Assembly: GCA_018818965.1 (NCBI GenBank)
Contig: JAHJQX010000010.1
Coordinates: 4,579-68,578 of the forward strand
DNA: 64,000 bases
Source: Patescibacteria group bacterium
Lineage (GTDB): Bacteria; Patescibacteriota; JABMPQ01
Direction of reading: 5' to 3'
The notes beneath the pieces are model-generated. The model made no database searches. It saw only the letters and a program-made list of their open reading frames with translations, and was not told the DNA's origin. The translations under genes and the position numbers were made by a program. Positions within the stretch are counted from its first letter, which is position 1. The number at the start of each line of letters is the position of its first letter. Positions 4,391-63,667 of the stretch are shown in pieces.

Positions 4391-5044
4391 ATGAAATACA
4401 AAGCAGCCATCTTTGATATGGACGGGGTTTTGGTTGATAGTGAATATTATTGGCAAAAATTTGAATTAAAGATCTGGCAGCGTTTGGGAGTGGACACTAA
4501 TCAGGAATTTCGTGAGCAGATAGTGGGCTTGGGGATTAGTAGTATTGCCAAGCTTCTTAAAGAGGAGCATGACATAAATATTTCAGCGGATAAGTTGGCG
4601 GCTGAATTAAATGAAGAAGCCAAGCAGGTTTATCTAGAATATTGCGATTTGATCCCGGGAGTCACCGAATTATTAGATAAATTAAAAAACAACTCAGTCC
4701 AATTATCTTTAGCCTCAGCTTCGCCACAGAATTGGGTAGATATGGTGATAGATAGATTTAGCCTAAAAAAATATTTCTCCTTGACTTTATCAACTCGCAC
4801 TATGCAGATACCACCCAAGCCTGATCCAGCTGTCTTCATTCGGGCGATGGAGGAGATGCAGGTAAGTCCAAATACGACATTGATATTTGAAGATTCTAGC
4901 TATGGCGTGTTGGCTGGCAGCCGTAGCGGGGCAACGGTGGTAGCTGTCAAGGATGGTCGCTGGTTAACGGGTGATATTGAGCCGGCTGATTTGGTCATCA
5001 AGTCGTTTACGGATGAGAGGTTAGAAGAGTTTTTGATAGAGTAG
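4391..5044 (+). CDS. HAD-superfamily hydrolase (beta-phosphoglucomutase-like subfamily IA)
   Basis: 217 aa. Motif I FDMDGVLVDSE and the HAD motif III/IV region. Separated from glmS by only 2 nt. Confidence 0.8.
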   Translation: MKYKAAIFDMDGVLVDSEYYWQKFELKIWQRLGVDTNQEFREQIVGLGISSIAKLLKEEHDINISADKLAAELNEEAKQVYLEYCDLIPGVTELLDKLKNNSVQLSLASASPQNWVDMVIDRFSLKKYFSLTLSTRTMQIPPKPDPAVFIRAMEEMQVSPNTTLIFEDSSYGVLAGSRSGATVVAVKDGRWLTGDIEPADLVIKSFTDERLEEFLIE

Positions 5045-11774: not shown

Positions 11775-12977
11775 ATGTCAAAACTAGAGCTACTAGCCCC
11801 AGCGGGGGATTTACGCAAACTTAAAACAGCGTTAGCCTTTGGGGCGGACGCTGTTTATTTTGGTTTGCCGGCTTTTTCGCTACGGTCACGGCTTAATCCT
11901 TTTGATAAAGGGAAAGTCAAGGAGGCGATGGCCTATGTGCATCAACAGGGTCGCCGAGCTTATTTAACCTTTAATATCTATCCCCACAGTCGTCATCTAA
12001 AAGAGTTGCCGAAATATGTTGATTTGATCGCTGAGCTCAAGCCCGATGCGCTGATCATGTCTGATCCGGGCATTATATCTTTTGTTAAAGAAAAGTTGCC
12101 GGAAATCCCGCGCCATCTTTCTACTCAGGCCAATTGCACTAACTGGCGGGCGGCTAAATTCTGGCATGAGCAAGGGATTAAGCGGATTATCTTAGCGCGG
12201 GAGGTGATTCTAGAAGATGTCAAAGAAATCCATCAAAAGGTTCCGAAATTAGAATTAGAATATTTTGTTCACGGGGCGATGTGCATGGCTTATTCGGGGC
12301 GGTGTATCTTGAGTAAATGGCTAACCGGTCGCAGTGCTAACCTGGGTGATTGTTCGCAGCCTTGCCGTTGGAAGTATCATCTAACGGAAGAAAAGCATCC
12401 AGGCGAGTATATGCCGATAGAAGAGGATCAACATGGTACTTACATCATGAATTCTAAGGATATATGCTTGATAGAACATATTGATGAGCTGCGCCAGGCT
12501 GGTGTTTGCAGTGTAAAGATCGAAGGACGGACGAAAAGTATTTACTATGTAGCCAATATTGTCAAAGCTTATCGGCAGGCTATTGATGGTGATAGGCCGG
12601 TTAAAGAGTTACGTCAAGAATTAGATAAAATCACTAATCGAGGCTATATCCCAGGATTTTTGTTTGGTGAAGAAAAATGCGAGCATAATCTGGCTAATTC
12701 GCATAATATTGCTGATTGGCAATTTGTGGGCGAGGTAATAGAATATGATCGGAAAAAAGAGACAGCGAACATTAAAGTTCACAATGAAATTCATCAAGGT
12801 GATAAAATAGAATTCGTAGTGCCAGGGGGAGATAATTTTACGCAAAAGCTGGATAAATTTCAGGATACTGAATCGGGAGAAGAGCTAACGGAAGCACACG
12901 GAGGAGCGGGGCAGAAAATAATTGTCAACCCTAGGAACCTGGCCCCAAAATACTCAGTCTTAAGAAGAAAAATATAA
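11775..12977 (+). CDS. peptidase U32 family protein (collagenase-like)
   Basis: 400 aa. Begins MSKLELLAPAGDL..., has a Cys-rich segment (CMAYSGRC...CSQPCRW) and the U32 C-terminal beta-barrel. Confidence 0.8.
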   Translation: MSKLELLAPAGDLRKLKTALAFGADAVYFGLPAFSLRSRLNPFDKGKVKEAMAYVHQQGRRAYLTFNIYPHSRHLKELPKYVDLIAELKPDALIMSDPGIISFVKEKLPEIPRHLSTQANCTNWRAAKFWHEQGIKRIILAREVILEDVKEIHQKVPKLELEYFVHGAMCMAYSGRCILSKWLTGRSANLGDCSQPCRWKYHLTEEKHPGEYMPIEEDQHGTYIMNSKDICLIEHIDELRQAGVCSVKIEGRTKSIYYVANIVKAYRQAIDGDRPVKELRQELDKITNRGYIPGFLFGEEKCEHNLANSHNIADWQFVGEVIEYDRKKETANIKVHNEIHQGDKIEFVVPGGDNFTQKLDKFQDTESGEELTEAHGGAGQKIIVNPRNLAPKYSVLRRKI

Positions 12978-12990
12978 TTTGTGCTAATAA

Positions 12991-13027
12991 AAAAACTACC
13001 CCACATAAAACAAGGGTAGTTTTTTAT
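12991..13027. terminator. bidirectional intrinsic terminator between convergent genes
   Basis: Stem CTACCC (12996-13001) pairs with GGGTAG (13014-13019). An A-run lies 5' and TTTTTTT 3' (13020-13026). Confidence 0.6.
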
Positions 13028-13035
13028 TAGTATGC

Positions 13036-13317
13036 TTACAGTGTTTTCTCAGCGTCAGCGACGAAATTATCAACGGCTGTTTGTAATATTGATTCGTAAT
13101 CTGGCACATTACTCTTGAGGTATTCTGCTAGCTTGGGGTCGTCGTCGTTAATTTTTTCTTCTAACTCGGCGGCTTTATCATCTGGAATGCTATTTGCGAG
13201 AGCGGTAATGATATATTTCTCTAGTTTTTCTCCCAGTTTTTCCGTCAATAATTCGCTAGCAGATAATTTATCGAGTAACCCCGTGCTTTGCAAAAGTTGT
13301 TTTGTTTGAGTAAGCAT
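13036..13317 (-). CDS. small acidic hypothetical protein (93 aa)
   Basis: ORF with a start and a convergent terminator. Acidic, helical-looking sequence with no recognisable family. Confidence 0.45.
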   Translation of the reverse strand: MLTQTKQLLQSTGLLDKLSASELLTEKLGEKLEKYIITALANSIPDDKAAELEEKINDDDPKLAEYLKSNVPDYESILQTAVDNFVADAEKTL

Positions 13318-13359
13318 TTATTTTTTTATTTAGGTGTTCATTAGTTAGTTTATGGAATG

Positions 13360-14115
13360 CTATCTACTGGCTACTTTTTCTGGCTCTTCTTGATCAGCTC
13401 TTTGCGGCACAGGTTTTCCGACAGTTCTTGGTGGCTTAGGTTTTTTATCAGCAAATAAATAATCGATTTCAGACCCTGCATTTCCTTGGCGCGGTGCTCG
13501 ATGGGAAGGACCCTGGCGACGTTTTTTACCACCAGGACGTTCTAAAGGAGCAGGTGATCCCTTTAGAGCCCTACCGGCTGTCTCCATGTTTCTTCTGTCC
13601 TCTACTTCCTTCAGAGCTCGTTTGTAAAATCCCTGTAAAGAATCTGGTAGTTGTAAATTTTTATCATCGCCGGACTCAATCGCTACTTTAAGGGTGTCGA
13701 TTATTTTACGCCCGTTCATTTCCAGGATACTTCCTTTAATTTCACCTTGACCAACTTTGGGGGCTGTATCACCCTGTTGTTTAATTTTCAAGCGCTCTTT
13801 TAGTAAATCTTCTAGTTGGTAAGAAGTCACTATTTCATCACTGTCTAAAGATTCTAGATCAACTCCTGGCTTAAAAAAGCTAGCAGGAATAGGTCTATCC
13901 ACATAACTATCTAAATGTCTTCCAGTCTCCGCGCTAGCATTACCAGCCAAACTCAACAGAGTCGCTGCGAGTATGATCTCTTTTTTACCGAACAACCCAC
14001 CCCGAAGACGCTCTCTTCCGGGAGACAATTTCGGTTCCATGATTTCCAACCGAGCCTCTCTGTCGGCTCCTGCTAATTCTTCGCTCGGCACTCCTTCAGG
14101 TGATCCCTCAGTCAT
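13360..14115 (-). CDS. hypothetical exported protein, GC-rich, next to an IS element
   Basis: 251-aa ORF. Signal-anchor-like segment (EIILAATLLSLAGNASA), a low-complexity Lys/Arg/Pro-rich C-terminus and no family match. About 50% GC. Confidence 0.35.
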   Translation of the reverse strand: MTEGSPEGVPSEELAGADREARLEIMEPKLSPGRERLRGGLFGKKEIILAATLLSLAGNASAETGRHLDSYVDRPIPASFFKPGVDLESLDSDEIVTSYQLEDLLKERLKIKQQGDTAPKVGQGEIKGSILEMNGRKIIDTLKVAIESGDDKNLQLPDSLQGFYKRALKEVEDRRNMETAGRALKGSPAPLERPGGKKRRQGPSHRAPRQGNAGSEIDYLFADKKPKPPRTVGKPVPQRADQEEPEKVASR

Positions 14116-14203
14116 ATTTTTATAGTTATTTATTATCTATCTTCCCTATGCTAACATAATATAACACAAATGTCAATAGTACTATAAAGGGTATACTAAC
14201 CCT

Positions 14204-15041
14204 GTTGGAACAAGAGTAGGATAGAATGAAATATATTAATTAACTCTTGTTCTATGATTGCATTTATCAATCAGGTTCCCTCGGAAACTAAAATCAAGAA
14301 ACAATTAAGAAAGATTATCTTTGGTCAAAATATGTTTTGTCCTCACTGTAATTCTAGGCAAGTGTATCGTTGTGAGAGTAGATACAGGTGTCGTAAGTGT
14401 AGAAGACCATTCACCCTACTATCAGGTACTTGGCTGAAGGACATGAAATTATCCCTGCGTACCTTCTGGGCTTTACTCTGGTGTTGGACACAGAAGGTTC
14501 CAGTGTTACAAACTATTAAACTATGCCATGTCAGCGAGAAGACTGCTAGGCATTGGTTCAGACAGTTCAGGCTACATTTGCCTCAATTTGAGGAGATTCT
14601 AGAAGGGACAGCTCAAATGGATGAAGCCTACTTCAGAAGTCTATCTCTGATTATGGCTAAACAACAAGGTAGTAGAAAACTAGCTCATCAGATCATAACC
14701 GGGAATTCCGTAAACAAAACTGAAGCAGCAAATTTCCTTTTTCAATATGTTCAACCTAATACTAAATTACATACAGATGGAGCTGGTATATATCGTAGTA
14801 TTGATCAGTGGTGGCCAGTCAAGCACAAGAGAGATATTCATTCCAAATGGGAATTTGGATTAACCTCAGAAATTGAAGGAATGTTTGGTAATTTACGTAC
14901 TTTTATTCGCAGAATGTATCATCATGTTACTCCACAATACCTACCAGAATATGTGAGTGAATTCTGCCTCAGATTTTCCTCACCTAAAATGTTCAGTTCT
15001 CCCTTAGAATATCTTAAAAAGTCCCTTTAGCTTGTTCCAAC
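14204..15041 (+). mobile_element. IS1595-family insertion sequence (about 840 bp)
   Basis: Terminal 11-bp inverted repeats: GTTGGAACAAG at 14204-14214 and CTTGTTCCAAC at 15031-15041. The 10-bp direct repeat TACTAACCCT sits at 14194-14203 (abutting the left IR) and again at 15058-15067 (16 bp beyond the right IR). Confidence 0.5.
14254..15030 (+). CDS. IS1595-family (ISXO2-like) transposase
   Basis: 258 aa. N-terminal zinc ribbon (CPHCNS...CRKC), the ...AQMDEAYF... motif (cf. VEVDETYF) and a DDE-type catalytic region. Confidence 0.8.
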   Translation: MIAFINQVPSETKIKKQLRKIIFGQNMFCPHCNSRQVYRCESRYRCRKCRRPFTLLSGTWLKDMKLSLRTFWALLWCWTQKVPVLQTIKLCHVSEKTARHWFRQFRLHLPQFEEILEGTAQMDEAYFRSLSLIMAKQQGSRKLAHQIITGNSVNKTEAANFLFQYVQPNTKLHTDGAGIYRSIDQWWPVKHKRDIHSKWEFGLTSEIEGMFGNLRTFIRRMYHHVTPQYLPEYVSEFCLRFSSPKMFSSPLEYLKKSL

Positions 15042-15185
15042 TTGTAATGATTACCCCTACTAACCCTCTTGACATAGGCTACAACAAAGAACGTTATAAC
15101 AATTTTTAAATCTTTTCAGTATAAATAAAATGTCTAATTAGTAAAGGTCTTTTATATAGAAAGTTCTACCATCCACGCTCTTCCA

Positions 15186-15221
15186 TCAAAAAAAGGCTTA
15201 AATAAGCCTTAAAATCGTCTA
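15186..15221 (-). terminator. intrinsic terminator after tRNA-Gln
   Basis: On the minus strand: CGATTTT-AAGGCTT-attt-AAGCCTT-TTTTTTT. Confidence 0.55.
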
Positions 15222-15292
15222 CTGGGGAGGAGGGATTCGAACCCCCGATCATGGAGCCAGAGTCCATTGCCTTACCGCTTGGCTACTCCCCA
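15222..15292 (-). tRNA. tRNA-Gln (anticodon CUG)
   Basis: Minus-strand sequence UGGGGAG UA GCC AAGCGGUAA GGC A AUGGA CUCUGGC UCCAU GAUC GGGGG UUCGAAU CCCUC CUCCCCA G. Has a U1:A72 pair and a 7-nt anticodon loop with U33 and CUG at positions 34-36. Closely resembles E. coli tRNA-Gln. CCA is not encoded. Confidence 0.9.
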
Positions 15293-15338
15293 TTATAAAA
15301 CCTATTGCCCCCGGAGTATAAAAAATCGTAGCTGACTT

Positions 15339-16484
15339 TTACTTTTTGGTCAAGGTTGCACTCTTACCTCCAACCTGCCTGTCCGGCAAACAAATCCGTT
15401 TCGCCTTCAAAACTAAAATCATTCCCAAGACGAACATAAAAATAAACAACAAGGCTAACACGAGAGACTTGTATTTACCTTCAACCAACAAAGCTACCGA
15501 ACCGAATATTGCACTGACAATATAGAAAAATACAACGGCACCTCGTTGAGTAAACCCCAAATCTAGCAAACGAAAATGTAAGTGTTTGCGATCAGCTGAT
15601 TTAAAAGGTGACTGCCTAAACCACAGGCGGCGGGCAATTACCCAACCCACATCTAAGATAGGGATGCCCATGATTAGCAAAGCTGTAGCAATCTTCCCAC
15701 CGCTAATGATAGCTAACACTCCTAACATAAACCCAACCCACGTACTACCTGCTTCCCCGAGAAATATTCGAGCGGGATGAAAATTTAGCAAGAGAAATCC
15801 TAGAGCAGCCCCGGCCAAGACGATACATAACAAAGCAGTTTCTGGTTGCATCACCTGTGGAGTGAGACTGAGAAAAAATAGAACCACCGCTCCGATTACA
15901 GTGACACCAGACACTAATCCATCAAGTCCATCAAGCAATTTGGTGGTGTACACCATTCCTAATAACCACAACAGAGTAAAAATATCGGCTAGAGGAGTAA
16001 AATAATAGGGCACTCCCTGCCAATTAAGAACTTCAATATTGATAAGATCAAGTCGGAAAGCACTACCAAAGGGATTGGAAATAAAATCAATGCCAATACC
16101 AGCAGTGATAATAACTAAAGAAGCTAATACTGGCCAAATAATCAGCTTGCCGGGCGATAAGTTATATTTATCATCAAGAACACCACCAACCATTAAAATC
16201 AGTCCTCCCAAAATTATACCGGCGATATGTTTTGGCAACATGTAGCCAGTAAAATAAGAATCGTCCCAAAGTAAAAAGAAAAGCAACACTAGTGTGAAAG
16301 CCAAAAAAACAGCTACTCCACCTAGTAGTGGAATCGGCTTCCGATGTATCTTCCGTTGGCCCTCTGGCTGATCAACAATCCCCCAACGCAAAGCTAACTT
16401 TTTCGTTAACAAAGTCAACAACGCCGACAGAGAACCAGCGAGAAAAAAAAGGGTAACAAATTGAACAACATTAGTCAGCATCAA
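15339..16484 (-). CDS. polyprenyl-phosphate N-acetylhexosamine-1-phosphate transferase (WecA/TagO-like GT4 MraY superfamily)
   Basis: 381 aa, polytopic. Motifs VDQPEGQRKIHRKPIPLLGG, LLDGLDGL, IFLGEAGSTWVG and SPFKSADRKHLH align with WecA rather than MraY. Confidence 0.8.
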   Translation of the reverse strand: MMLTNVVQFVTLFFLAGSLSALLTLLTKKLALRWGIVDQPEGQRKIHRKPIPLLGGVAVFLAFTLVLLFFLLWDDSYFTGYMLPKHIAGIILGGLILMVGGVLDDKYNLSPGKLIIWPVLASLVIITAGIGIDFISNPFGSAFRLDLINIEVLNWQGVPYYFTPLADIFTLLWLLGMVYTTKLLDGLDGLVSGVTVIGAVVLFFLSLTPQVMQPETALLCIVLAGAALGFLLLNFHPARIFLGEAGSTWVGFMLGVLAIISGGKIATALLIMGIPILDVGWVIARRLWFRQSPFKSADRKHLHFRLLDLGFTQRGAVVFFYIVSAIFGSVALLVEGKYKSLVLALLFIFMFVLGMILVLKAKRICLPDRQVGGKSATLTKK

Positions 16485-21743: not shown

Positions 21744-22916
21744 TTAGGTTTTAAGTTGTGATCCTTTGCCCATATAACCTTTCAGTACCGACAACCAGGC
21801 TCCCAAGCCGAAGGCGATAGCCACGAGCTTTACTAGCCAACCAATAAAAGGAACTGCTACTACAATCCCAAAGATTACCAAGCCCAGCCCAACAGACCAG
21901 ATCAGAGAAACTTCTTGCTTTTTACCAATCGCTTTGATCAAACGATCACCAATCCACAAGCCAACAATAACCTTAGCCAAATAAATAGCTGCACTGTATA
22001 AGACAAAGACAAGCAAGGCTAGAGGAAAACCAACAATTGTTACCATAACCATGACAGCTGCAATTGGGGTGGCGATTAATACTAACAGTCCCCAACCAAA
22101 ACTTGCACCAGGCTGACCAGTAAGTTTTGCTAAAACTCTACTGGCAATACGCGGGAATAGTAATACAAATAAAATACCGATAATTAATAAACCTAGACCA
22201 CTAATAATCTTACTCGCTGTCCCAGTAATCATCGCCAGGACAGGATTGCCAGAGCCCACCTTAGCCCCACTGTATGAATTTTTAGCCTCCGTCCATTCTT
22301 TGACACCAGCCACTTCTGCTCCACTATCTATTTGCGCTTCTTGAGTAGAGCTATATTTTAAATCACCATTAATCCTTGCATCCGAAGTTAGACTTAGATT
22401 TTCAATTTCTCCCTCTACATTACCACCAACTTCACCCGCTAATTTCATCTCACCCGCTCCCACCCAGATATTACGACCAACATCACCATATAAACTTACG
22501 TTTCCCGCTCCCACGATCAAATCACGACCGATTAGAACATTATCATCTATTTCAACCATGCCGCCCGCCAAGATCACATTATCCTCTATTCTCTCCTTGA
22601 TCCTAACTTGCCCCCCAGAAGCAACCACGTCATCCATTACCGGTCCTTCGATAGTCACTTGGCCTGCTCCCACCAGCACATCGCCATTTACCTGACCAGT
22701 TACTTCTACATCCCCTCCAGCGATAACCAAATCGCCATTTATTTGCCCGTGGATTCTTATATTCCCTCCGGCCACTAATAAATCGTCCTCAATAATCTGA
22801 TCTGCAGCGATAATAACTTCATCACCATTCTTGAATTCAATAGCCTGAGCGCTCACTGGTAGCACTAGAAACATAAACAAGGCAACTACACCAATTAATC
22901 CCCATTTGACCTTCAT
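21744..22916 (-). CDS. exported beta-helical repeat (bactofilin/DUF583-like) domain fused to a C-terminal polytopic membrane domain
   Basis: 390 aa. Signal peptide MKVKWGLIGVVALFMFLVLPVSAQA, then about 150 aa of G-x-V/I-x-G-D/N repeats (INGDLVIAGGDVEVTGQVNGDVLVGAGQV...), then 5-6 TM helices. Confidence 0.55.
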   Translation of the reverse strand: MKVKWGLIGVVALFMFLVLPVSAQAIEFKNGDEVIIAADQIIEDDLLVAGGNIRIHGQINGDLVIAGGDVEVTGQVNGDVLVGAGQVTIEGPVMDDVVASGGQVRIKERIEDNVILAGGMVEIDDNVLIGRDLIVGAGNVSLYGDVGRNIWVGAGEMKLAGEVGGNVEGEIENLSLTSDARINGDLKYSSTQEAQIDSGAEVAGVKEWTEAKNSYSGAKVGSGNPVLAMITGTASKIISGLGLLIIGILFVLLFPRIASRVLAKLTGQPGASFGWGLLVLIATPIAAVMVMVTIVGFPLALLVFVLYSAAIYLAKVIVGLWIGDRLIKAIGKKQEVSLIWSVGLGLVIFGIVVAVPFIGWLVKLVAIAFGLGAWLSVLKGYMGKGSQLKT

Positions 22917-23329
22917 ATTTTTATTTTTTTAATTAGTTTTGATGATTTATATATCTCCGGCTTATACGATCTTGCTCGTATTATTTTAATATTTTGGTTG
23001 CTTCCCTTAATATATCTTTCCAACTCACCGACAAACTTCCGCTGATCATAGCCTAAACAAATTATAGCTGGCTGGCGCTCACGGATTATTTGTAATTTAT
23101 CACCTCCCGACTGAGCAGCTATTACCTCATCAACTATTCCTTGTTTCTCAATCTCGGCCATCCGCTCAGTTTGTTTATGTATTGGATATTCGCCTTTGAT
23201 TGTCTTTACCGTCTCATCGTGAGCTACCACCACCGTTAGCTGATCACCATGCTCCTTGGCTTGGCGGAAAAAATCTAGATGACCCAGATGAAGAATATCA
23301 AAGGTGCCGAAGACCATTATTTTAATCAT
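22913..23329 (-). CDS. HxGH-motif nucleotidyltransferase (cytidylyltransferase-like; RibL/TagD-type)
   Basis: 138 aa. MVFGTFDILHLGHLDFFRQAK... carries the (T/H)xGH signature. Resembles glycerol-3-P cytidylyltransferase and the archaeal-type FAD synthetase. Confidence 0.7.
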   Translation of the reverse strand: MIKIMVFGTFDILHLGHLDFFRQAKEHGDQLTVVVAHDETVKTIKGEYPIHKQTERMAEIEKQGIVDEVIAAQSGGDKLQIIRERQPAIICLGYDQRKFVGELERYIKGSNQNIKIIRARSYKPEIYKSSKLIKKIKI

Positions 23330-25428
23330 AATCCTAACTCATCACTAATTTCCTGCATCGCCTTGAGGCTAAGTTCGATAAACTCATCTAACGATAATCC
23401 TAATTGATCACACTCTCCAATCATCTCACGCGACACTTTAGCGGCAAAAGACTTGTCTTTCATTTTTTTCTTAAGCGACTTGGCTTTGACGTTGGCTAGT
23501 TTTTTGTCTGGATGCACTAGAGCAGAAGCAAAAATCAAACCAGTGATACTCTCTGCACAAGCCACCGCATGATCGAGCTTAGTTTGCCGCTCAATCACCT
23601 TATTATATTCATAACTGTGAGCTTGGATAGCGTTGATACCAACTTCAGGAAACTTTTGCGCCCGGAGAATATCAGCTGTTACCTTACCATGCTCGGCTGG
23701 CTTATCTTGAGTCTCCTCCCAATCAAGATCGTGTAGTAAACCTGTTACTGCCCACAACTCCTCGTCCTCACCTAACTTTTTAGCCAAAGCTCGCATAATT
23801 ACTTCCGTCTCGCGGGAGTGAAGAATGTTTTTTTCGTCTTTCAAATGCTCTTTGAGTAGAGCAAACGCATCGTCGCGAGTCAGGGATAAATTAACTTTGG
23901 CCATTTTTTGAGATTTAGTTAGCAGGGTTTTATTTCTATCTGCAGTTGATGTCAGCCGGTGACCGTCGTCACCTTTGGGCTTCATGGTGGGGAACAAGAT
24001 CACTTCTTTGATCGAATTGGTATTGGTAAACAACATTGCCATACGATCAATCCCGATACCAATTCCAGTTACGGGTGGCATTCCATGCTCAATCGCTTCG
24101 ATAAATTCTTCGTCAGTCTGGTGGGCTTCGTCAAAACCAGATTGTTCTTTCTTTTTTTCCTCAACGAAACGTTGACGCAAATCAACCGGATCATTAAGCT
24201 CTGAATAATGATTGCCAGCTTCAGATCCGATAATGAAATGTTCGAAGCGCTCAACAAAACGAGGATCATCGGCGCATTTCTTGGCTAGGGGAGATGTTTC
24301 TACTGGGTAATTGTAAATGATGGTCGGCTGAATTAGTTTCTCCTCCACTTTCTCTTCAAAAATATAAGCAATCATCTCACCTGTGGTCTGGAACATGGCA
24401 AGCTCCTCTTTGTCTAGCCCCAACTTTAAGGCCTTTTCCCTGACCTGGTCACAGCTATCACCGATAGTAAAATCAGCTCCGGTATATTCTTTAATAGACT
24501 CGACCATAGTTAACCGCTTCCAAGGTCGTTCCAGATTAATCTTCTGTCCCTGATATTCAATCTCCGTTCCACCTAGCACTTCTTGAGCCGTCTGCAAATA
24601 GATCTCCTCCACCAAATCCATACTAAACTCATAGTTTTGGTAAGCCGTCATAATTTCTAGCAGAGTAAACTCAGGATTATGACTTAGATCAATGCCTTCA
24701 TTGCGAAAGTCCTTACAAAACTCAAACACTTTCTCAAAACCACCCACTATTAATCTCTTAAGATACAGCTCGTCAGAAATACGCAGATAAAGTGGAATAT
24801 CCAAGGCATTATGATGAGTCTTAAATGGCTTAGCAAAACCGCCACCATAAATCGTTTGCAAAATAGGAGTGTCGACTTCCATATACCCTTTAGTAATCAG
24901 AATCTGCCGAATTTTTTCAATCATGGCGGAACGAAGTTCAAATCTTTTTCTAACTTCCGGATTGACTGCCAAATCCAAATAACGCTTACGAAATCTTTCC
25001 TCGACATCTTTTAAACCATGCCATTTTTCTGGCAATGGCTTTAGGCTCTTAGTGAGAAGGGAATAGTCAGATACTTCGAGAGTCTTTTCGCCCTTCTTAG
25101 TAGTAAATAATTTACCAGTCAGCTGCACAAAATCTCCCATATCAAGACTTGAGAAAGATTTATACTTGTCTTCGCCAAGGATATCTCGTCGTAAATAAGC
25201 TTGGATTCGAGCAGTACCATCTTGCACCTGGACAAAAGTAGATCCCCCATGGGAGCGAATAGCATAAATCCTTCCCACTAAGGATATTTCCCGTCCCTTG
25301 AGCTTAGCAAAATCAGCCAACATTTCCTGGCAAGTGTTTGTCCTTTTGGCTTTAGCCGGATAGGGATTTAATTTTGCCTGCTTAATTTTATTGAGTTTGG
25401 CAAGACGTATTGCTGACTCTTCCGCCAT
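23326..25428 (-). CDS. lysS: lysyl-tRNA synthetase (class II) fused to a C-terminal HD-domain phosphohydrolase
   Basis: 700 aa. Residues 1 to about 500 are a complete LysRS (OB anticodon-binding domain, motifs 1-3, ...GIGIDRMAMLF...VILFPTMKP). Residues about 520-700 carry H...HD...H...D (ILHSRE...LLHDLDW...AHSYE...LDHAV), typical of HD/YqeK-like hydrolases. No stop separates the two parts. Confidence 0.9.
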   Translation of the reverse strand: MAEESAIRLAKLNKIKQAKLNPYPAKAKRTNTCQEMLADFAKLKGREISLVGRIYAIRSHGGSTFVQVQDGTARIQAYLRRDILGEDKYKSFSSLDMGDFVQLTGKLFTTKKGEKTLEVSDYSLLTKSLKPLPEKWHGLKDVEERFRKRYLDLAVNPEVRKRFELRSAMIEKIRQILITKGYMEVDTPILQTIYGGGFAKPFKTHHNALDIPLYLRISDELYLKRLIVGGFEKVFEFCKDFRNEGIDLSHNPEFTLLEIMTAYQNYEFSMDLVEEIYLQTAQEVLGGTEIEYQGQKINLERPWKRLTMVESIKEYTGADFTIGDSCDQVREKALKLGLDKEELAMFQTTGEMIAYIFEEKVEEKLIQPTIIYNYPVETSPLAKKCADDPRFVERFEHFIIGSEAGNHYSELNDPVDLRQRFVEEKKKEQSGFDEAHQTDEEFIEAIEHGMPPVTGIGIGIDRMAMLFTNTNSIKEVILFPTMKPKGDDGHRLTSTADRNKTLLTKSQKMAKVNLSLTRDDAFALLKEHLKDEKNILHSRETEVIMRALAKKLGEDEELWAVTGLLHDLDWEETQDKPAEHGKVTADILRAQKFPEVGINAIQAHSYEYNKVIERQTKLDHAVACAESITGLIFASALVHPDKKLANVKAKSLKKKMKDKSFAAKVSREMIGECDQLGLSLDEFIELSLKAMQEISDELGL

Positions 25429-25467: not shown

Positions 25468-25502
25468 GCAAACAAAAGCAATCTACTTTAACGTAGATTG
25501 CT
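25468..25502 (-). terminator. putative intrinsic terminator after greA
   Basis: 10-bp stem AGCAATCTAC (25477-25486) pairs with GTAGATTGCT (25493-25502). On the minus strand it is followed by TTTTGTTTG. Confidence 0.4.
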
Positions 25503-25537
25503 TGTATTATAGCAAAAAATATACTTATTCAAAGCAA

Positions 25538-25999
25538 TTATCCGATAGTCATCACTCTATAACTTTTCTGTCCGACAGGAGTTTCTACTTTGACTATTTC
25601 GCCTACTTCTCTATCTAAAAAAGCTTGACCAATCGGTGATTCGTTAGAAATTTTACCCGCTACCGGATCAGCTTCATCTGATCCTACTATTTTGTACTCG
25701 ATTTCTTTGCCATTACTTTTCACCACAATCGTTGAACCTACTCTAATAGATTTCCCCTGACCACTTTTCTTGATAATGACAGCGTTTTTTATCTTGCTCG
25801 CCAATTCAATAATTCTCCCCTCGACAAAGGCCTGCTGCTCCTTAGCCTCTGAATATTCACCACTCTCAGAAATATCACCTTCTTCTAGAGCCTTCCGGAT
25901 ACGATCAGAAACTTCTTTACGCTCGACTTTCTGCAAATGCTCTAGCTCTTTTTTTAATTCGCTCAGACCTTCTTCGGTTAAGTAGTTCTTTTTTATCAT
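25538..25999 (-). CDS. greA: transcription elongation factor GreA
   Basis: 153 aa. N-terminal coiled coil with acidic tip residues, and a C-terminal FKBP-like domain. Confidence 0.9.
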   Translation of the reverse strand: MIKKNYLTEEGLSELKKELEHLQKVERKEVSDRIRKALEEGDISESGEYSEAKEQQAFVEGRIIELASKIKNAVIIKKSGQGKSIRVGSTIVVKSNGKEIEYKIVGSDEADPVAGKISNESPIGQAFLDREVGEIVKVETPVGQKSYRVMTIG

Positions 26000-57128: not shown

Positions 57129-58511
57129 TTAATAGGCGGCTTCTGCTCTAACTACGATCTTAGCGGTACGTAGTAATATCTGCAAATCCATCTTAAGCGA
57201 CCAATTTTCAATATAATAGGTGTCCAATTTTACCTCTTCGTCAAAAGAGAGGTCGGCTGCACCACTTACCTGTCCCATACCAGTCATACCAGGCTTGATA
57301 GCCAACACCTTATTTTGATGTTTTCGATACTGAGCTACTTCTTCTGGTTCGTGGGGACGTGGTCCCACCAAACTAATATCGTCCTTGAGGATATTAATAA
57401 ATTGGGGCAATTCATCAATCCGAGTTTTACGTAATAATTTACCAACTTGGGTGATGCGAGGATCATTTTTCATTTTAAACAGTGGCCCTTGACGCTCACT
57501 GTACTTAAGCAGGTCTTTTTTCATTTTATGGGCATCTTTGACCATGGAACGAAACTTAAACATATCAAAATTACCATCACGCCCTACTCGAGTCAGCCTG
57601 ACAAAAACTGGTCCGGGAGAATCTAATTTAATCGCAATGGCAACTAGCACAAATAAGGGGGTCAAGAATACTAAACCAAAAACTGCCCCGATAACATCAA
57701 TAACCCGTTTTATTATCTTCCCCCAGCCATCGAGAGGAGTGCGGCGGAATTCCACCAAAGGAAACCCGGCAATGACTTTAACCTCTATATTGATGGCCTC
57801 TGTGCCAAATAAGTCCGGGACATATTTCATATCAATCTTGCGCTCATTGGCAAAATCAATCAACTCCAACATTTTCGTCTTCGGAATACTGGGATCAGTT
57901 TGAATAATTTCGTCTATTCCTTGCGTTTGTGATAAATTTTCTAATTTTTCTAGCGTATCGCCATTAATTTCTGGTAATACTCCGACTACTTTATAGCCAA
58001 AAAGAGGGTTACGATAATTATCTTTGATGTGTTTGGTAGCAGAAGTTTGACCAATTAAGGCCACTCGGTGTGCCCCGTAGCCATAACGATATAGTCGCTG
58101 TTGGATAAAGCGGACCAGCGATCGACCAAAAACGACAAACATGATGGCTAAAGACCAAGTAACTAAGACTAAAAAACGGGAAGAAAACAACTCGGCTCGC
58201 AGAAAAATATACAAAACAATGCCCATTGCTCCCGTTGAAACCCCGACGAACACACTATAGAGATCATCAACAAAGCGCCTTTTCTTCTTAGGATTATACA
58301 GTCCCAATAAAGCAAAAATAATCAACCAAACCGGAGCTACTAATGCTATTAAGACAATGTATTGCTGCAGAGGTAAATCAAACTTGATTGGTCTGATCTC
58401 CACCACTTGCCCTGTAAAACGCAAAAAATAGGTAACAATAGCCGCCAATACTACCATTAGAAAATCAACGGGGACTAAGATCGCAGTAAAAAATAATTCT
58501 GATTTCTTCAT
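57129..58511 (-). CDS. polyprenyl-phosphate hexose-1-phosphate transferase (WbaP-type bacterial sugar transferase)
   Basis: 460 aa. Four or five N-terminal TMs, a cytoplasmic loop, and the C-terminal catalytic domain ...DELPQFINILKDDISLVGPRP...KPGMTGMGQVSG. Confidence 0.85.
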   Translation of the reverse strand: MKKSELFFTAILVPVDFLMVVLAAIVTYFLRFTGQVVEIRPIKFDLPLQQYIVLIALVAPVWLIIFALLGLYNPKKKRRFVDDLYSVFVGVSTGAMGIVLYIFLRAELFSSRFLVLVTWSLAIMFVVFGRSLVRFIQQRLYRYGYGAHRVALIGQTSATKHIKDNYRNPLFGYKVVGVLPEINGDTLEKLENLSQTQGIDEIIQTDPSIPKTKMLELIDFANERKIDMKYVPDLFGTEAINIEVKVIAGFPLVEFRRTPLDGWGKIIKRVIDVIGAVFGLVFLTPLFVLVAIAIKLDSPGPVFVRLTRVGRDGNFDMFKFRSMVKDAHKMKKDLLKYSERQGPLFKMKNDPRITQVGKLLRKTRIDELPQFINILKDDISLVGPRPHEPEEVAQYRKHQNKVLAIKPGMTGMGQVSGAADLSFDEEVKLDTYYIENWSLKMDLQILLRTAKIVVRAEAAY

Positions 58512-58553
58512 TTAAAGAAGGGGTTAACCTGCTCTGAATTATATACCAAAAAG

Positions 58554-58984
58554 CTCAAGCAAACAATAAGCCGAATTTAGTACCTCGTACCATTTCGGAT
58601 TTGAGTGATACGGGGCGATGATCATCTATCTGGTCCCATCATTGCTAATGGGATCAAGCGACCTACATTTTGGTCTTGCACCAGGCAGGGTTTACCAGAT
58701 TCCCATGTCACCATGAGATCAAATGGGTAGCTATCATGCTAACATCCCATTTCTTTTCACCTTTGCTCCCATCTGCCTGCCGGTAGGCAGGATCAGATCG
58801 GGACTAGTATTGTCTCTGCGGCACTTTCCCTAAGATTCAAGCCAGCTAAAAGTCTGCAGGACTCCTAACTATCTTTCTCCCGGTCGCCGTTAGCGACTGC
58901 CTTGCTGTCCCGATGGTCATCGGGACGGTGTTCGGACTTTCCTCCCCGATGAATATCGAGGCGATCATCTTGTTTACTTGAGCC
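58554..58984 (-). ncRNA. rnpB: RNase P RNA, bacterial type A
   Basis: ORF-free GC-rich block. The minus strand reads GCUCAAGUAAAC...GGGGAGGAAAGUCCGAAC (P4 5' strand)...AAGGUGAAAAG...GGUAAACCCUGCCUGGUGCAAGACCAAAAUGUAGG...ACUAAAUUCGGCUUAUU (P4 3' strand) GUUUGCUUGAGC. The two ends pair to form P1. Confidence 0.85.
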
Positions 58985-59072
58985 AGAACAGAATAACATA
59001 ATAATGACAGATGTCAATAATATTCACCCCGATAGATTCTCTTGTTTAGAGAATAACAAAAAAATCTAAATT

Positions 59073-59357
59073 TTATTCATCCCGCTCGACAATTCGATAA
59101 TTTTTCTGCAAATAGAGTAAATCTTTTTTAAATTTACTCAGTCGGGCACTACTGCCAACATCTTTTTTCCTAACCATCTGACCAGTTAAATCTAGTACGG
59201 TGGCTAAACTAGCAAAATAGTCACCTGCTTTGATATGCTCTTTGACTCCAGTGATTCTCTGTTCTTTCTCTGAATCATTTATGAGCAAGGGGAAATTAAA
59301 ACCAGTCCAAGGGTAATCCCCAAAAAACATCAGGTTGTGGGAGTTGATTTTATACAT
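59073..59357 (-). CDS. hypothetical protein (94 aa)
   Basis: ORF directly downstream of radC on the same strand (24-nt gap). No family recognised. Confidence 0.4.
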   Translation of the reverse strand: MYKINSHNLMFFGDYPWTGFNFPLLINDSEKEQRITGVKEHIKAGDYFASLATVLDLTGQMVRKKDVGSSARLSKFKKDLLYLQKNYRIVERDE

Positions 59358-59381
59358 GGCGACAGAGATGTTGGAGTTAAC

Positions 59382-60110
59382 TTAGTACTCAACTGGTACA
59401 CTAGCAAATCGATTTTTGGTAATGATAATATGATCTAGCAAATCAATACCGAGAATATGACCAGCCTCTACTAATTGTTTAGTGATGCTAATATCTGATT
59501 CGGTTGGTTTGACAACGCCAGAAGGATGGTTGTGTGCTAAAACCATGGCCACAGCTGAATACTCCAAAGCTGGTCGGAAAACCTCGCGGGGATGAACAAT
59601 ATTGGTTGTTAAACTACCAATGGAGATAATTTCATCGTGCACCACCCGATGACGACTATTAAGATAAATACCCCGCAGTTGTTCTTTGGGTAAGTCCCGC
59701 ATCTCTTTGAGATATTCATAAGCTTGCTTGGGTGTTCTAATGACAGCAGCCCGACCCTTAGTCTCTTTAAAAAACCGCCGGCCCAACTCGAAACAAGCGA
59801 CAATTTGACAAGACTTAGCTAGCGGAACACCTAATTCTTTTTCCAGTAATTTTGGATCGGTTTGGTTTATAATGCCTTTTTCGCCATATTCCTTAACTAT
59901 GCGAGAAGACATCATCATTACTTCCTCCTTTTTTGTGCCCACGTTTAAAACCACTGCCAATAATTCAGGCGTGGATAAAGAAATGGGACCTTCTTTGATT
60001 AATTTCTCCCGTGGTTTGTCCTCGTCTGGCAGATCTTTTATGCGGAGAGGATACTGTCGGTTTGGATTGTCGAGGATAAGGCTGTGATCTTGGAGGGAAT
60101 AGGTAGTCAT
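59382..60110 (-). CDS. radC: RadC-family JAB/MPN domain protein
   Basis: 242 aa. N-terminal HhH region (...ELLAVVLNVGTKKEEV...) and a JAMM-like motif ...VMVLAHNHPSGVVKPTESD... Confidence 0.85.
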   Translation of the reverse strand: MTTYSLQDHSLILDNPNRQYPLRIKDLPDEDKPREKLIKEGPISLSTPELLAVVLNVGTKKEEVMMMSSRIVKEYGEKGIINQTDPKLLEKELGVPLAKSCQIVACFELGRRFFKETKGRAAVIRTPKQAYEYLKEMRDLPKEQLRGIYLNSRHRVVHDEIISIGSLTTNIVHPREVFRPALEYSAVAMVLAHNHPSGVVKPTESDISITKQLVEAGHILGIDLLDHIIITKNRFASVPVEY

Positions 60111-60311
60111 GTTTTTCGTTTATGTTAAGCCCTTACTTGATACAGAAAAACTACTTATTGAGTCTACTTTAATATAAAATGAGAGGGAAAGCAAATGTTG
60201 GATTAAAACCTAAAGTAAGGTGCTGTTAGCCCCCATCTGGCAATAGAAATTTGACGTTGAACAAGTCCACATACATATTGGACTCTAGAAGAGGTGGACT
60301 CATACAGACGT

Positions 60312-60340
60312 TTGACTTAACTACTAGCTAATGTTATTTT
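60312..60340 (+). promoter_or_regulatory. putative promoter TTGACT-N17-TGtTATTTT for the 60390 gene
   Basis: -35 at 60312-60317 and extended -10 TGTTATTTT at 60332-60340, the same extended -10 sequence as at 40151-40159. A strong SD AAGGGAGG precedes the ATG. Confidence 0.3.
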
Positions 60341-60389
60341 TACGATCTGCTCATTCAACAACCATATCGTCCACTAAGGGAGGCAAGAA

Positions 60390-60866
60390 ATGTTCTTTCC
60401 TGTTTTCGGCATTGTTTTTGTTCTTCTCGGTGCTCTATTTCTTTCCTGGAGCAGCTGGCGGTTATACCAGAAAGTAAAAAGAGTACAACAAGGCATGATG
60501 GCGAGCCTGGATCGAAAAATATCCACAGCTGAGGAAAAACTGACTGCTATCAAGGAACTATGGGGAGACCAAGTTCCCTATTACCAACTCTTCGCTCATT
60601 GTTTGCTCGGAGAGAGCAGGGATGTTCCTCATATTATGACCGCGGCTTGTTTGGTTTTCTTCCCTCACGATGAAGCCCAACCGGGTAAAGACGTAAAAAT
60701 AGAAACTGAAAGAACTGAACAAGGAACTTTAATTACTGTCATCGTCCACGACAGTGAGGTCTTACTGACCGATGTTACCCTGAGCGAACGGCTGTTCGCA
60801 CTTATTCAGGTAGCAGACAACAGAGATGATAATCCCCGCTTTCTCGAGTTTAATCTTGAACCTTAG
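60390..60866 (+). CDS. hypothetical membrane-anchored protein (158 aa)
   Basis: N-terminal TM (FFPVFGIVFVLLGALFLSWSSW), SD-like AAGGGAGG 8 nt upstream, no family match. Confidence 0.45.
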   Translation: MFFPVFGIVFVLLGALFLSWSSWRLYQKVKRVQQGMMASLDRKISTAEEKLTAIKELWGDQVPYYQLFAHCLLGESRDVPHIMTAACLVFFPHDEAQPGKDVKIETERTEQGTLITVIVHDSEVLLTDVTLSERLFALIQVADNRDDNPRFLEFNLEP

Positions 60867-61058
60867 CCAGTTTAGAGCGCACTTCGCTGTGTGCTTTTTT
60901 TACAACAAAACCCTTTCGCCAGGGGTTAATTTTATTTATGGGAATTACTAGAAAATATTAGAATCTGTTTGGTAAAAAATGGCTTACAGCCCCAAGTGGT
61001 AATTTTGTTGGATTTGGGATACAATAAATTAGTGTTGGGTAAAAAGAAATATACTCAA

Positions 61059-63585: not shown

Positions 63586-63667
63586 AAATTATAAATTTGG
63601 TTTAAAAATCCTAACAAAAAAACCAGTAGCCGGCAAGTATATTCCAAATCACCTGCCTATGCGTAGG

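What the first reader, a model, noticed from the sequence alone, without database searches (positions are those of the whole stretch)
23326..23915. Lysyl-tRNA synthetase carrying a C-terminal HD-domain phosphohydrolase
A complete class II LysRS (about 500 aa) continues in frame, with no stop, into an H...HD...H...D domain of about 180 aa that resembles YqeK-like HD hydrolases. Established knowledge: LysRS is the main cellular source of Ap4A, and YqeK-family HD proteins hydrolyse Ap4A. Inference: this fusion may couple Ap4A synthesis and degradation in one polypeptide, or it may be a nucleotide-signalling or editing accessory. This is an unusual architecture for an aaRS.
Basis: partly seen in the sequence, partly recalled or inferred. 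Interest (0 to 1): 0.55.

Follow-up and report, generated by a model that had tools for sequence, protein, structure and literature searches.

The report
LysRS fused to intact HD phosphohydrolase
A Patescibacteria (CPR) lysyl-tRNA synthetase really does continue, without a stop, into a well-conserved metal-dependent HD hydrolase domain, and this pairing recurs across the group, so the two activities are probably linked, but what the hydrolase cleaves is still unknown.

Summary
ORF 23326..25428 (minus strand, 700 aa) is a complete class II LysRS (aa 1-485), a disordered linker of about 25 aa, and an HD/HDIG domain (aa 509-700) that scores above the curated cut-offs.

It is not an assembly artefact. 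At least 65 distinct LysRS+HD proteins exist in public data, including one in the reverse order (HD-LysRS). In other Patescibacteria the same HD gene sits next to lysS, in either order.

All six putative metal ligands are essentially invariant in 66 fused tails. The HD module changes more slowly at the protein level than the LysRS core (dN 0.079 versus 0.177). Core and tail have discordant histories, so the pairing has been re-made or re-assorted.

The module belongs to a large, uncharacterised family of stand-alone proteins of about 185 aa.

My best guess, at about 0.35-0.4, is cis hydrolysis of a LysRS nucleotide by-product such as Ap4A. A tRNA-directed role is nearly as likely.

I found no paper describing the fusion. 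Databases label these proteins simply "lysine--tRNA ligase".

The parts
23326..25428 (-). Whole lysS::HD fusion gene, 700 aa plus a TGA stop at 23326..23328. Identical to MBU1177720.1.
23974..25428 (-). Class II LysRS core, aa 1-485. OB anticodon-binding domain at aa 49-125 (25054..25284). Catalytic domain at aa 142-482 (23983..25005). Motif 2 FRNEG at aa 241 and motif 3 GIGIGIDR at aa 455 are intact.
23905..23973 (-). Linker, aa 486-508 (GDDGHRLTSTADRNKTLLTKSQK). Its length and sequence vary between relatives. AF2 pLDDT is below 50 for aa 482-508. Its dN/dS is about 0.7.
23329..23904 (-). HD/HDIG phosphohydrolase module, aa 509-700. It begins at the conserved internal Met509, which corresponds to the start codon of the stand-alone homologues. 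All-helical model with pLDDT 92.9.
23551..23820 (-). Span holding the six putative metal-ligand codons: H537 (23818-23820), H566-D567 (23728-23733), H580 (23689-23691), H604 (23617-23619), E626 (23551-23553). D569 is also invariant.
23425..23523 (-). Conserved basic segment, aa 636-668 (ALVHPDKKLANVKAKSLKKKMKDKSFAAKVSRE; 11 K/R). It contains the invariant F661 and R667.
22913..23329 (-). Downstream 138-aa cytidylyl/adenylyltransferase-family gene (TIGR00125, PF01467). Its ATG overlaps the fusion's stop codon (ATGA), so the two are probably translationally coupled. The same neighbour is found in L001, L002 and L092.
25476..25503 (-). Terminator-like hairpin between greA (25538..25999) and the lysS::HD start. 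It may mark the 5' boundary of the lysS::HD-nucleotidyltransferase-serS-alr gene string. This is a pattern match only.

Best explanation
Shown: this is the syntenic class II lysyl-tRNA synthetase gene of a Patescibacteria bacterium (its housekeeping role is inferred). It is joined by a disordered linker of about 25 residues to a folded HD-domain module. The module comes from a large, functionally uncharacterised family of stand-alone HDIG proteins of about 185 aa. It keeps a full six-residue ligand set of the binuclear type (H, HD, H, H, D/E) and is under strong purifying selection, so it is very probably an active metal-dependent phosphohydrolase. In Patescibacteria this HD gene is tied to lysS. 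It is found fused C-terminally, fused N-terminally, or as a separate neighbour on either side. Core and tail have different histories, which argues for selection on the pairing.

Inferred: the tethered HD acts in cis on a phosphate-containing product of LysRS chemistry. The most likely specific substrate is a dinucleoside polyphosphate (Ap4A/Ap4N, possibly Ap3A), which class II LysRS makes from lysyl-AMP plus ATP. A less likely substrate is an aminoacyl-adenylate. The enzyme would then destroy its own by-product locally. The confidence value below refers to this inferred mechanism. The architecture and the catalytic competence I rate at about 0.9.
For: Architecture:
- One ORF with LysRS, linker and HD, and all profile scores above cut-off.
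- LysRS motifs 2 and 3 are intact.
- The HD-only model has pLDDT 92.9. The full-length model has pTM 0.53 with the linker below pLDDT 50.

Not an artefact, and recurrent:
- Uninterrupted ORFs in L001, L002, L060 and L091.
- About 40 fusions among the top 120 hits.
- About 20 representatives at 50% identity aligned in one stretch over core plus tail.
- 65 proteins carrying both parts.

Catalytic competence:
- In 66 fused tails: H537, H566, D567 and H604 in 66/66; H580 and D569 in 64/66; an acidic residue at 626 in 66/66.
- The same residues are invariant in the stand-alone family.
- Window versus L001: HD dN 0.079 and dN/dS about 0.04; core dN 0.177; linker dN/dS about 0.7.

Linkage to lysS:
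- L004 has lysS, a TAA stop, 1 nt, then the HD ATG.
- L006, L007, L088 and L089 have HD followed by lysS. L090 has one gene between them.
- P0270/L091 is an HD-LysRS fusion in the reverse order.
- Fused proteins are scattered on both the HD tree and the core tree.
- Core/tail discordance: window versus L092 is 44% in the core and 68% in the HD; window versus P0125 is 73% and 42%.

Nucleotide substrate, and Ap4A in particular:
- The only PDB sequence hits of the family profile are YqeK Ap4A hydrolases, and they are also the top Foldseek hits.
- The ligand composition is the same as in YqeK (H21, H50-D51, H83, H109, D127; PMC13627108), and the H-to-HD spacing is identical at 29 residues.
- The module is small and acidic (pI 5.5) with no RNA-binding domain.
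- Neighbouring and co-fused genes are nucleotide enzymes: a nucleotidyltransferase, a Ham1/ITPase and a HAD domain.
- Class II LysRS is the classic cellular source of Ap4A (established knowledge; reviews PMC7705103 and PMC10148737 listed).
Against: - No substrate is shown.
- The YqeK model TIGR00488 is not matched.
- The YqeK phosphate contacts R18 and K54 align with non-basic residues (with PMC13627108).
- The closest curated profiles are the RNase Y HD region and the Trm56-HD fusion, both RNA-linked, although all score far below their cut-offs.
- Outside Patescibacteria the family is stand-alone and not linked to lysS: 79 of 80 genome loci, with no conserved neighbour. Its ancestral role therefore need not involve LysRS.
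- Other modules fused to these LysRS proteins (tRNA_bind, B3_4, DUF2000) point to tRNA rather than nucleotides.
- All adjacency cases lie in one conserved MreCD-PBP2-GreA-...-SerRS-Alr block, so part of the linkage could be inherited synteny.
Confidence: 0.38

Rival explanations
1. tRNA/RNA-directed module. The HD acts on tRNA(Lys), or on tRNA 3' ends in general. It could remove a 2',3'-cyclic or 3'-phosphate so that the CCA end can be charged, as the HD domain of class II CCA-adding enzymes does. Alternatively it could cleave or trim RNA as the RNase Y HD domain does, with LysRS supplying the tRNA binding.
For: - The best curated profile neighbours are the RNase Y HD region (39 of 40 members, E down to 1e-7) and the archaeal Trm56-HD fusion PRK12703 (37 of 40, E down to 1e-10).
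- There is a conserved basic stretch at aa 636-668.
- Sister architectures combine the HD with tRNA_bind, B3_4 (the PheRS-beta editing-domain family) and DUF2000 on LysRS.
Against: - All of these profile matches are far below the family cut-offs (at most 34 bits against 454 for RNase Y, and at most 25 bits against 434 for PRK12703), so they are generic HD similarity.
- The module is acidic overall (pI 5.5, net charge about -7) and lacks KH or other RNA-binding domains.
- Six-ligand binuclear HD sites are best known from nucleotide phosphodiesterases and pyrophosphatases such as YqeK and PgpH.
- Stand-alone family members outside CPR have no tRNA-gene context.
Confidence: 0.27
2. Passenger fusion. 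The HD is a general nucleotide-housekeeping enzyme that happens to lie next to lysS in a conserved operon. In compact Patescibacteria genomes the stop codon is easily lost, and the fusion persists because it is harmless. The only coupling to LysRS is co-expression.
For: - In L004 the two genes are 1 nt apart, so a single change could fuse them.
- The internal Met509 sits where the stand-alone homologues start, a relic of the old start codon.
- The linker evolves almost neutrally, and no docked arrangement is predicted (pTM 0.53).
- The family is widespread and not linked to lysS outside CPR.
- The gene string is tightly packed, with overlapping starts and stops.
Against: - Fusions occur in both orders and adjacency occurs in both orders.
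- Fusions are scattered over the LysRS and HD trees.
- Core/tail discordance shows that the pairing survived or was re-made through module replacement.
- There are at least 65 distinct fused proteins spanning less than 50% identity.
- In these searches I saw no comparable fusion of the HD to GreA or SerRS, the other neighbours in the block.
Confidence: 0.2
3. [quoted passage not shown] It would help position the acceptor arm without hydrolysing anything.
Against: - The GlyRS-beta domain has lost the His-Asp doublet (Ser393-Lys394 in E. coli; PMC8464048). Here all six ligands are invariant in 64-66 of 66 fusions.
- Most closely related LysRS proteins work without the module, for example unfused P0143 at 75% identity over the C-terminal ~150 aa of the core.
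Confidence: 0.05
4. Artefact. There are really two genes, joined by a sequencing or assembly error or by wrong gene calling.
For: - Annotators of L001 called only a 184-aa HD protein and no lysS.
- L092 and L003 show a frame break and an N-run at the junction.
Against: - The L001 DNA holds one 702-aa ORF.
- The L092 break lies in a T9 homopolymer at 1.65x coverage, and the L003 gap duplicates LRPKK. Both point to fusions damaged by assembly, not the reverse.
- Dozens of independent assemblies keep the frame across linkers of different lengths.
- There is no in-frame stop under code 11, so an alternative genetic code is not needed.
Confidence: 0.02

Closest known systems
YqeK (COG1713 / TIGR00488), the symmetrical Ap4A/Ap4N hydrolase of Firmicutes
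   Same: Both are small all-helical HD proteins of about 190 aa. The six-ligand binuclear pattern H...HD...H...H...D(E) is the same, and the H-to-HD spacing is identical at 29 residues. YqeK gives the only PDB sequence-level hits for the family profile and the top Foldseek hits (PMC13627108). YqeK is encoded next to a nucleotidyltransferase (NadD); here the HD is followed by a small nucleotidyltransferase-family gene.
HD domain of the bacterial (alpha-beta)2 GlyRS beta-subunit
   Different: The GlyRS-beta HD domain has lost the catalytic His-Asp doublet and serves tRNA acceptor-arm recognition (PMC8464048). It is ancient and embedded between other domains. The LysRS HD keeps every ligand, is a terminal module on a flexible tether, was added recently and repeatedly, and occurs in a group (CPR) that lacks bacterial-type GlyRS altogether.
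PgpH HD domain (c-di-AMP phosphodiesterase) and HD-GYP (c-di-GMP phosphodiesterase)
   Different: There is no 7TM sensor and no GYP motif. No profile-level sequence match was found. There is no known link between cyclic dinucleotides and LysRS.
HD domain of class II CCA-adding enzymes (tRNA 3'-end phosphoesterase)
   Same: It is an HD phosphoesterase attached to an enzyme that handles the tRNA 3' end (established knowledge). It is the conceptual model for the tRNA-repair rival.
   Different: It did not appear among the top sequence or fold matches; the only tRNA-processing entry, 3wfo, ranked 42nd in Foldseek at E 0.9. By recollection it has a simpler H...HD...D site.
Other LysRS fusions, such as mycobacterial LysX (MprF-LysRS)
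   Same: A class II LysRS core is joined to a second enzyme that uses or handles a LysRS product. The window core scores 495 bits on the LysX model over its LysRS part.
   Different: The LysX partner is a membrane lysyl-phosphatidylglycerol synthase at the N-terminus. Here the partner is a soluble phosphohydrolase.

Membership tests
Class II lysyl-tRNA synthetase (LysS; TIGR00499 / PRK00484) | Score above the curated equivalog/subfamily cut-off over the full model | tested here: met
   PRK00484 scores 635 bits (cut-off 468) over aa 4-485. TIGR00499 scores 569 bits (cut-off 428).
Class II lysyl-tRNA synthetase (LysS; TIGR00499 / PRK00484) | N-terminal OB-fold anticodon-binding domain plus a class II catalytic core with motifs 2 and 3 | tested here: met
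   PF01336 at aa 49-125 and PF00152 at aa 142-482. FRNEG at 241 and GIGIGIDR at 455. R242, E244, H250, E403, E410 and R462 are invariant in 260 LysRS cores.
Class II lysyl-tRNA synthetase (LysS; TIGR00499 / PRK00484) | Lysylation of tRNA(Lys) | not testable with these tools
   This needs an enzyme assay. It is the only LysRS copy in the 64-kb window and sits in the conserved GreA-LysRS-SerRS position.
HD superfamily (PF01966) / HDIG domain (TIGR00277) | Profile score above the gathering or curated cut-off | tested here: met
   PF01966 scores 41.1 bits in the whole protein and 43.9 bits in the tail alone (cut-off 22). TIGR00277 scores 44.7 and 48.2 bits (cut-off 27.6).
HD superfamily (PF01966) / HDIG domain (TIGR00277) | Conserved H...HD...D metal ligands on an all-alpha fold | tested here: met
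HD superfamily (PF01966) / HDIG domain (TIGR00277) | Metal-dependent phosphohydrolase activity | not testable with these tools
   Inferred from ligand conservation and dN/dS of about 0.04.
YqeK Ap4A hydrolase (TIGR00488 / COG1713) | Match to the curated YqeK model (cut-off 70.15 bits) | tested here: not met
   The window tail has no hit at E <= 1. Only 6 of 40 family members hit, with a best E of 0.001. One archaeal member scored 20.3 bits.
YqeK Ap4A hydrolase (TIGR00488 / COG1713) | Binuclear site with six ligands (H21, H50, D51, H83, H109, D127 in GtYqeK; PMC13627108) | tested here: met
   The composition and order are the same: H537, H566, D567, H580, H604 and E/D626. The spacing between HD and the third ligand differs (13 residues against 32).
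YqeK Ap4A hydrolase (TIGR00488 / COG1713) | Phosphate-binding residues R18, K54 and R133 (PMC13627108) | tested here: not met
   In the HMM alignment to 2ogi and 8jja, the R18 position aligns with L/N and the K54 position (HDxxK) aligns with W/F (HDLDW). R133 could not be aligned.
YqeK Ap4A hydrolase (TIGR00488 / COG1713) | Symmetrical hydrolysis of Ap4A to 2 ADP | not testable with these tools
   This needs an enzyme assay.
GlyRS beta-subunit-type HD domain | HD fold with a degenerate (non-catalytic) His-Asp doublet, embedded in a tRNA-binding subunit | tested here: not met
RNase Y (TIGR03319), Trm56-HD (PRK12703), TIGR00295 | Score above the curated cut-offs, and the family's domain architecture | tested here: not met
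   RNase_Y scores 30.9 bits against 454. PRK12703 scores 23 bits against 434. For TIGR00295, family members score at most 23 bits against 172. Only the HD region matches, and there is no KH or SPOUT domain.

The most novel reading that the evidence does not exclude
The LysRS-HD fusion is the first aminoacyl-tRNA synthetase carrying a catalytically active HD phosphohydrolase. It would form a self-contained make-and-break unit for Ap4A/Np4N, or a quality-control step on tRNA(Lys) or lysyl-adenylate. Together with the sister architectures (LysRS plus B3_4, tRNA_bind, DUF2000 or HAD), it would show that Patescibacteria have turned LysRS into a hub for cis-acting proofreading or housekeeping modules. 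It would also assign a first function to a family of more than 5,000 uncharacterised HD proteins.
Probability: 0.3. Interest if true: 0.7.

Novelty: new variant of a known kind. Interest (0 to 1): 0.5.

Why it matters
Aminoacyl-tRNA synthetases often gain accessory domains, and those domains have repeatedly revealed editing, signalling or regulatory functions. Class II LysRS is the classic source of Ap4A, whose turnover and role in bacteria are under active study.

A LysRS that carries its own intact phosphohydrolase gives a concrete, cheap experiment: express one protein, assay a nucleotide panel and damaged tRNA ends, and mutate H566/D567. The pairing was re-created many times in bacteria with minimal genomes, which strengthens the case for a functional link.

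The result would also give a first functional handle on a widespread, unannotated HD family found in Thermodesulfobacteriota, Bacteroidota, Planctomycetota, Elusimicrobiota and archaea.

If the substrate turns out to be tRNA, this would be a new kind of cis tRNA-repair or quality-control step on a synthetase.

Tried and rejected
1. phmmer of the tail against PDB sequences found nothing. A family profile found only marginal YqeK hits.
3. I looked for a conserved neighbour of the stand-alone HD gene in 80 non-CPR genome loci and found none. The largest neighbour cluster had 5 proteins from 4 loci, out of 286 neighbour ORFs.
4. I tested whether the archaeal members belong to TIGR00295 or to the Trm56-HD type, which would have been a second Rosetta stone to tRNA. 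I rejected this because the scores are far below the cut-offs.
5. An independent internal start for the HD module: there is no Shine-Dalgarno-like motif before ATG 23904, and promoter-like matches are at chance level (12 found against 11.5 expected). It is not supported but not excluded.
6. The full-length AF2 model, made to look for a docked HD-LysRS interface, was inconclusive (pTM 0.53, 16-sequence alignment, no PAE or coordinates returned).
7. The first Biopython NJ run timed out and I replaced it with a numpy NJ. The trees have no support values. The Fitch count of 32 changes is inflated by sampling bias and tree error, so I use it only qualitatively.
8. Literature searches for LysRS plus HD, CPR aaRS fusions, COG2316 and Trm56 plus HD found no description of this fusion.
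9. I considered an alternative genetic code as the cause of the fusion. I rejected it because the ORF is open under code 11.
Full report
**1. What is in the sequence**

The window holds a single open reading frame at 23326..25428 on the minus strand (700 aa, ATG start, TGA stop).

- Pfam places an OB-fold anticodon-binding domain at aa 49-125, a class II catalytic core at aa 142-482 (E 3e-80) and an HD domain at aa 537-620 (E 2.4e-10, above the gathering score).
- NCBIfam scores the first 485 residues well above the curated LysRS cut-offs: PRK00484 at 635 bits against 468, and TIGR00499 at 569 against 428. The tail scores above the HDIG-domain cut-off, at 48.2 bits against 27.6.
- Class II motifs 2 (FRNEG, aa 241) and 3 (GIGIGIDR, aa 455) are intact, and this is the only LysRS in the window.
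- The module begins at an internal Met (M509, codon 23904..23902). This Met aligns with the start of the stand-alone homologues.

**2. It is not an artefact**

The two closest relatives of the tail were a partial fusion (P0001, locus L002) and a protein called as a separate 184-aa gene (P0002, locus L001). The L001 DNA in fact contains one 702-aa ORF, and the annotators simply called the HD part from the internal ATG.

- The identical 700-aa protein is in NCBI as MBU1177720.1, "lysine--tRNA ligase [Patescibacteria group bacterium]".
- Two apparent splits look like damaged fusions. L003 has an N-run at the junction with "LRPKK" duplicated on both sides. L092 has a frame break inside a T9 homopolymer on a 1.65x-coverage contig, and the LysRS C-terminal motif "FFPLMRPK" continues in the HD frame.

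**3. The fusion is recurrent**

- A full-length search returned about 40 proteins of roughly 700 aa with both parts among the best 120 hits, at 45-54% identity over 99% of the length. They include Gottesmanbacteria (KKS98743.1 / A0A0G1GIZ9) and Shapirobacteria entries.
- An exhaustive search of 1.84 billion cluster representatives at 50% identity gave about 20 representatives aligned in one stretch over core plus tail.
- In all, 65 fetched proteins carry both parts.
- One cluster (P0270, 8 members, contigs up to 85 kb) has the opposite order, with HD at aa 1-179 and LysRS at aa 217-714. It is an uninterrupted gene in L091.
- L060 is a 704-aa fusion built on a LysRS core only 42% identical to the window's.

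**4. Gene neighbourhood**

Where the HD protein is free-standing in Patescibacteria, it is next to lysS inside the same MreC-MreD-PBP2-GreA-...-SerRS-Alr block.

- L004 has lysS, a TAA stop, 1 nt, then the HD ATG.
- L006, L007, L088 and L089 have GreA-HD-lysS.
- L090 has one gene between HD and lysS.

Outside this group the family is stand-alone (about 170-285 aa). It occurs in Thermodesulfobacteriota, Bacteroidota, Planctomycetota, Elusimicrobiota and archaea. Of 80 genome loci, only L060 had lysS nearby, and no other neighbour was conserved. The linkage is therefore specific to this lineage. Because all cases lie in one syntenic block, part of it could be inherited order. The swap of order and the fusions in both orders argue for more than inertia.

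**5. History of the two halves**

On an NJ tree of HD modules the fused tails fall in at least three places. The window's clade is nested among adjacent forms and likely fusions (L004, L003, P0003). On an NJ tree of 260 LysRS cores, fused proteins are scattered among unfused ones, and the window's clade is sister to unfused P0143. These trees have no support values, and sampling favours fusions.

Direct identities make the same point without a tree:

| Window versus | Core, C-terminal ~155 aa | HD module | Downstream nucleotidyltransferase |
|---|---|---|---|
| L092 | 44% | 68% | 56% |
| P0125 (fused) | 73% | 42% | - |
| P0145 (fused) | 62% | 41% | - |
| P0143 (unfused) | 75% | - | - |

Core and tail therefore have different histories. 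The pairing has been re-created, or kept through replacement of one module.

**6. Is the HD module functional?**

- In 66 fused tails: H537, H566, D567 and H604 are present in 66/66; H580 and D569 in 64/66; residue 626 is D or E in 66/66. G630, F661 and R667 are invariant. The same positions are invariant in 40 stand-alone and tail sequences.
- Between the window and L001, the HD module is 87% identical (dN 0.079, dN/dS about 0.04), the LysRS core is 75% identical (dN 0.177, dS saturated), and the linker is 43% identical (dN/dS about 0.7).
- The HD-only AlphaFold model is confident (pLDDT 92.9, pTM 0.88, all-helical).
- The full-length model has pTM 0.53 with residues 482-508 below pLDDT 50. 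That fits a module on a flexible tether, with no confidently predicted docking.

I infer a catalytically competent phosphohydrolase of the binuclear type.

**7. Which HD family?**

None of the curated ones.

- The window tail does not hit the YqeK model TIGR00488 at E <= 1. Only 6 of 40 family members hit it, with a best E of 0.001.
- The consistent curated neighbours are the RNase Y HD region (39/40), the archaeal Trm56-HD fusion PRK12703 (37/40) and TIGR00295 (32/40). All score far below their cut-offs, and this also holds for archaeal members.
- A family profile against PDB sequences hits only YqeK proteins (2ogi, 8jja), at E about 2e-3 and only over the first H...HD segment.
- Foldseek puts YqeK/SP1746, PgpH and the GlyRS-beta HD domain on top, at E of 3e-3 or worse and TM 0.45-0.53.
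- From the YqeK structure paper (PMC13627108), the metal ligands are H21, H50, D127 and H83, H109, D51, and the tetraphosphate contacts are R18, K54 and R133. The LysRS tail matches the ligand set and the H-to-HD spacing. In the alignment it has non-basic residues at the positions of R18 and K54.

So "works like a binuclear HD nucleotide hydrolase" is reasonable, but "is a YqeK" is not supported.

**8. Comparison with the one known HD domain in an aaRS**

The bacterial GlyRS beta-subunit contains an HD fold whose His-Asp doublet is replaced (Ser393-Lys394 in E. coli). It bound none of the nucleotides tested and helps position the tRNA acceptor arm (PMC8464048). It is closest in sequence to the RNase Y HD domain, and CPR bacteria lack this GlyRS type altogether (10.1101/2023.05.29.542759).

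The LysRS module resembles it in fold and in its RNase Y-like sequence affinity. It differs in being intact, terminal, tethered and recently acquired.

**9. Mechanism**

The shown facts are the architecture, the conservation, the linkage and the discordant histories. The inferred step is the substrate.

I rank first a nucleotide by-product of LysRS, above all Ap4A/Ap4N. The reasons are:
- class II LysRS is the classic Ap4A producer (established knowledge; reviews listed);
- the ligand set and the nearest solved sequences are those of Ap4A hydrolases;
- the module is small and acidic (pI 5.5, charge about -7) and has no RNA-binding domain;
- its gene neighbours and co-fused partners include nucleotide enzymes: a nucleotidyltransferase, a Ham1/ITPase and a HAD domain.

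A tRNA-directed role ranks a close second. The reasons are:
- RNase Y-like and GlyRS-beta-like affinities;
- a conserved basic stretch at aa 636-668;
- sister architectures that combine the HD with tRNA_bind, B3_4 and DUF2000 on LysRS.

A passenger fusion with co-expression only cannot be excluded. A non-catalytic role and an artefact are unlikely.

**10. Novelty and verdict**

I found no paper describing a LysRS-HD fusion. The proteins are in public databases, labelled only as LysRS.

I class the finding as a new variant of a known kind: an aaRS with an appended accessory enzyme. It is real, recurrent and under selection, and its chemistry is unresolved. It is of moderate interest because a simple assay could decide between the models and would annotate a large orphan HD family.

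Noticed in passing
Related proteins P0299, P0318, P0221, P0229, P0159, P0162, P0300, P0248, P0142, P0155, P0339 (not in the window): Patescibacteria-type LysRS proteins carry a combinatorial set of extra modules. The architectures seen are B3_4-LysRS, LysRS-B3_4, LysRS-HD-B3_4, LysRS-B3_4-HD, LysRS-tRNA_bind-B3_4-HD, LysRS-DUF2000, LysRS-DUF2000-HD and LysRS-HAD-HD. B3_4 is the domain family that holds the PheRS-beta editing site. A LysRS with an editing-type domain is itself undescribed as far as I know.
   Followed up: partly
L001 4447..6555 (GCA_013202585.1, JABMPQ010000039.1): The public annotation calls only a 184-aa 'HDIG domain-containing protein' from the internal ATG and leaves about 1.8 kb uncalled. 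The DNA holds one 702-aa LysRS-HD ORF. Counts of the fusion taken from annotations will therefore be too low.
   Followed up: yes
L092 440..480 and L003 about 4860..5000: The junctions of two relatives are damaged by assembly. L092 has a frame break in a T9 homopolymer at 1.65x coverage. L003 has an N-run with 'LRPKK' duplicated on both sides. Both are probably fusions.
   Followed up: partly
window 21744..22916 (-): A 390-aa ORF lies between the nucleotidyltransferase gene and serS. It has a signal-like N-terminus, a repetitive G/D/V-rich (beta-solenoid-like) region and a hydrophobic C-terminal half. It has no NCBIfam hit and only a sub-threshold Pfam FapA match. It is absent from this position in L001 and L002, where the nucleotidyltransferase gene is followed directly by serS.
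   Followed up: partly
window 22913..23329 (-); L003 5624..6217; L004 5570..6160: The gene after the HD module overlaps its stop codon. In the window clade and L092 it is a small cytidylyl/adenylyltransferase-family protein. In L003 and L004 it is a Ham1/ITPase-like protein. Both are nucleotide-handling enzymes, which recalls the NadD-YqeK pairing of Firmicutes.
   Followed up: partly
window 63512..63586 (-) and 15222..15292 (-): tRNA-Lys(UUU) and tRNA-Gln(CUG) genes. The tRNA-Lys gene would be the natural substrate for testing the fusion enzyme.
   Followed up: no
window about 12000..16000 and about 58000..62000: GC skew changes sign: it is positive over 1-14 kb, negative over 14-60 kb, and positive again over 60-62 kb. 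This may reflect a switch in coding strand or a replication landmark. I did not examine it.
   Followed up: no
L060 (CAZNIO010000009.1, labelled 'uncultured Gammaproteobacteria bacterium'): This contig carries a 704-aa LysRS-HD fusion whose LysRS resembles the type found in L003, L004 and L006. Either the bin label is wrong, or the fusion also occurs outside Patescibacteria.
   Followed up: no
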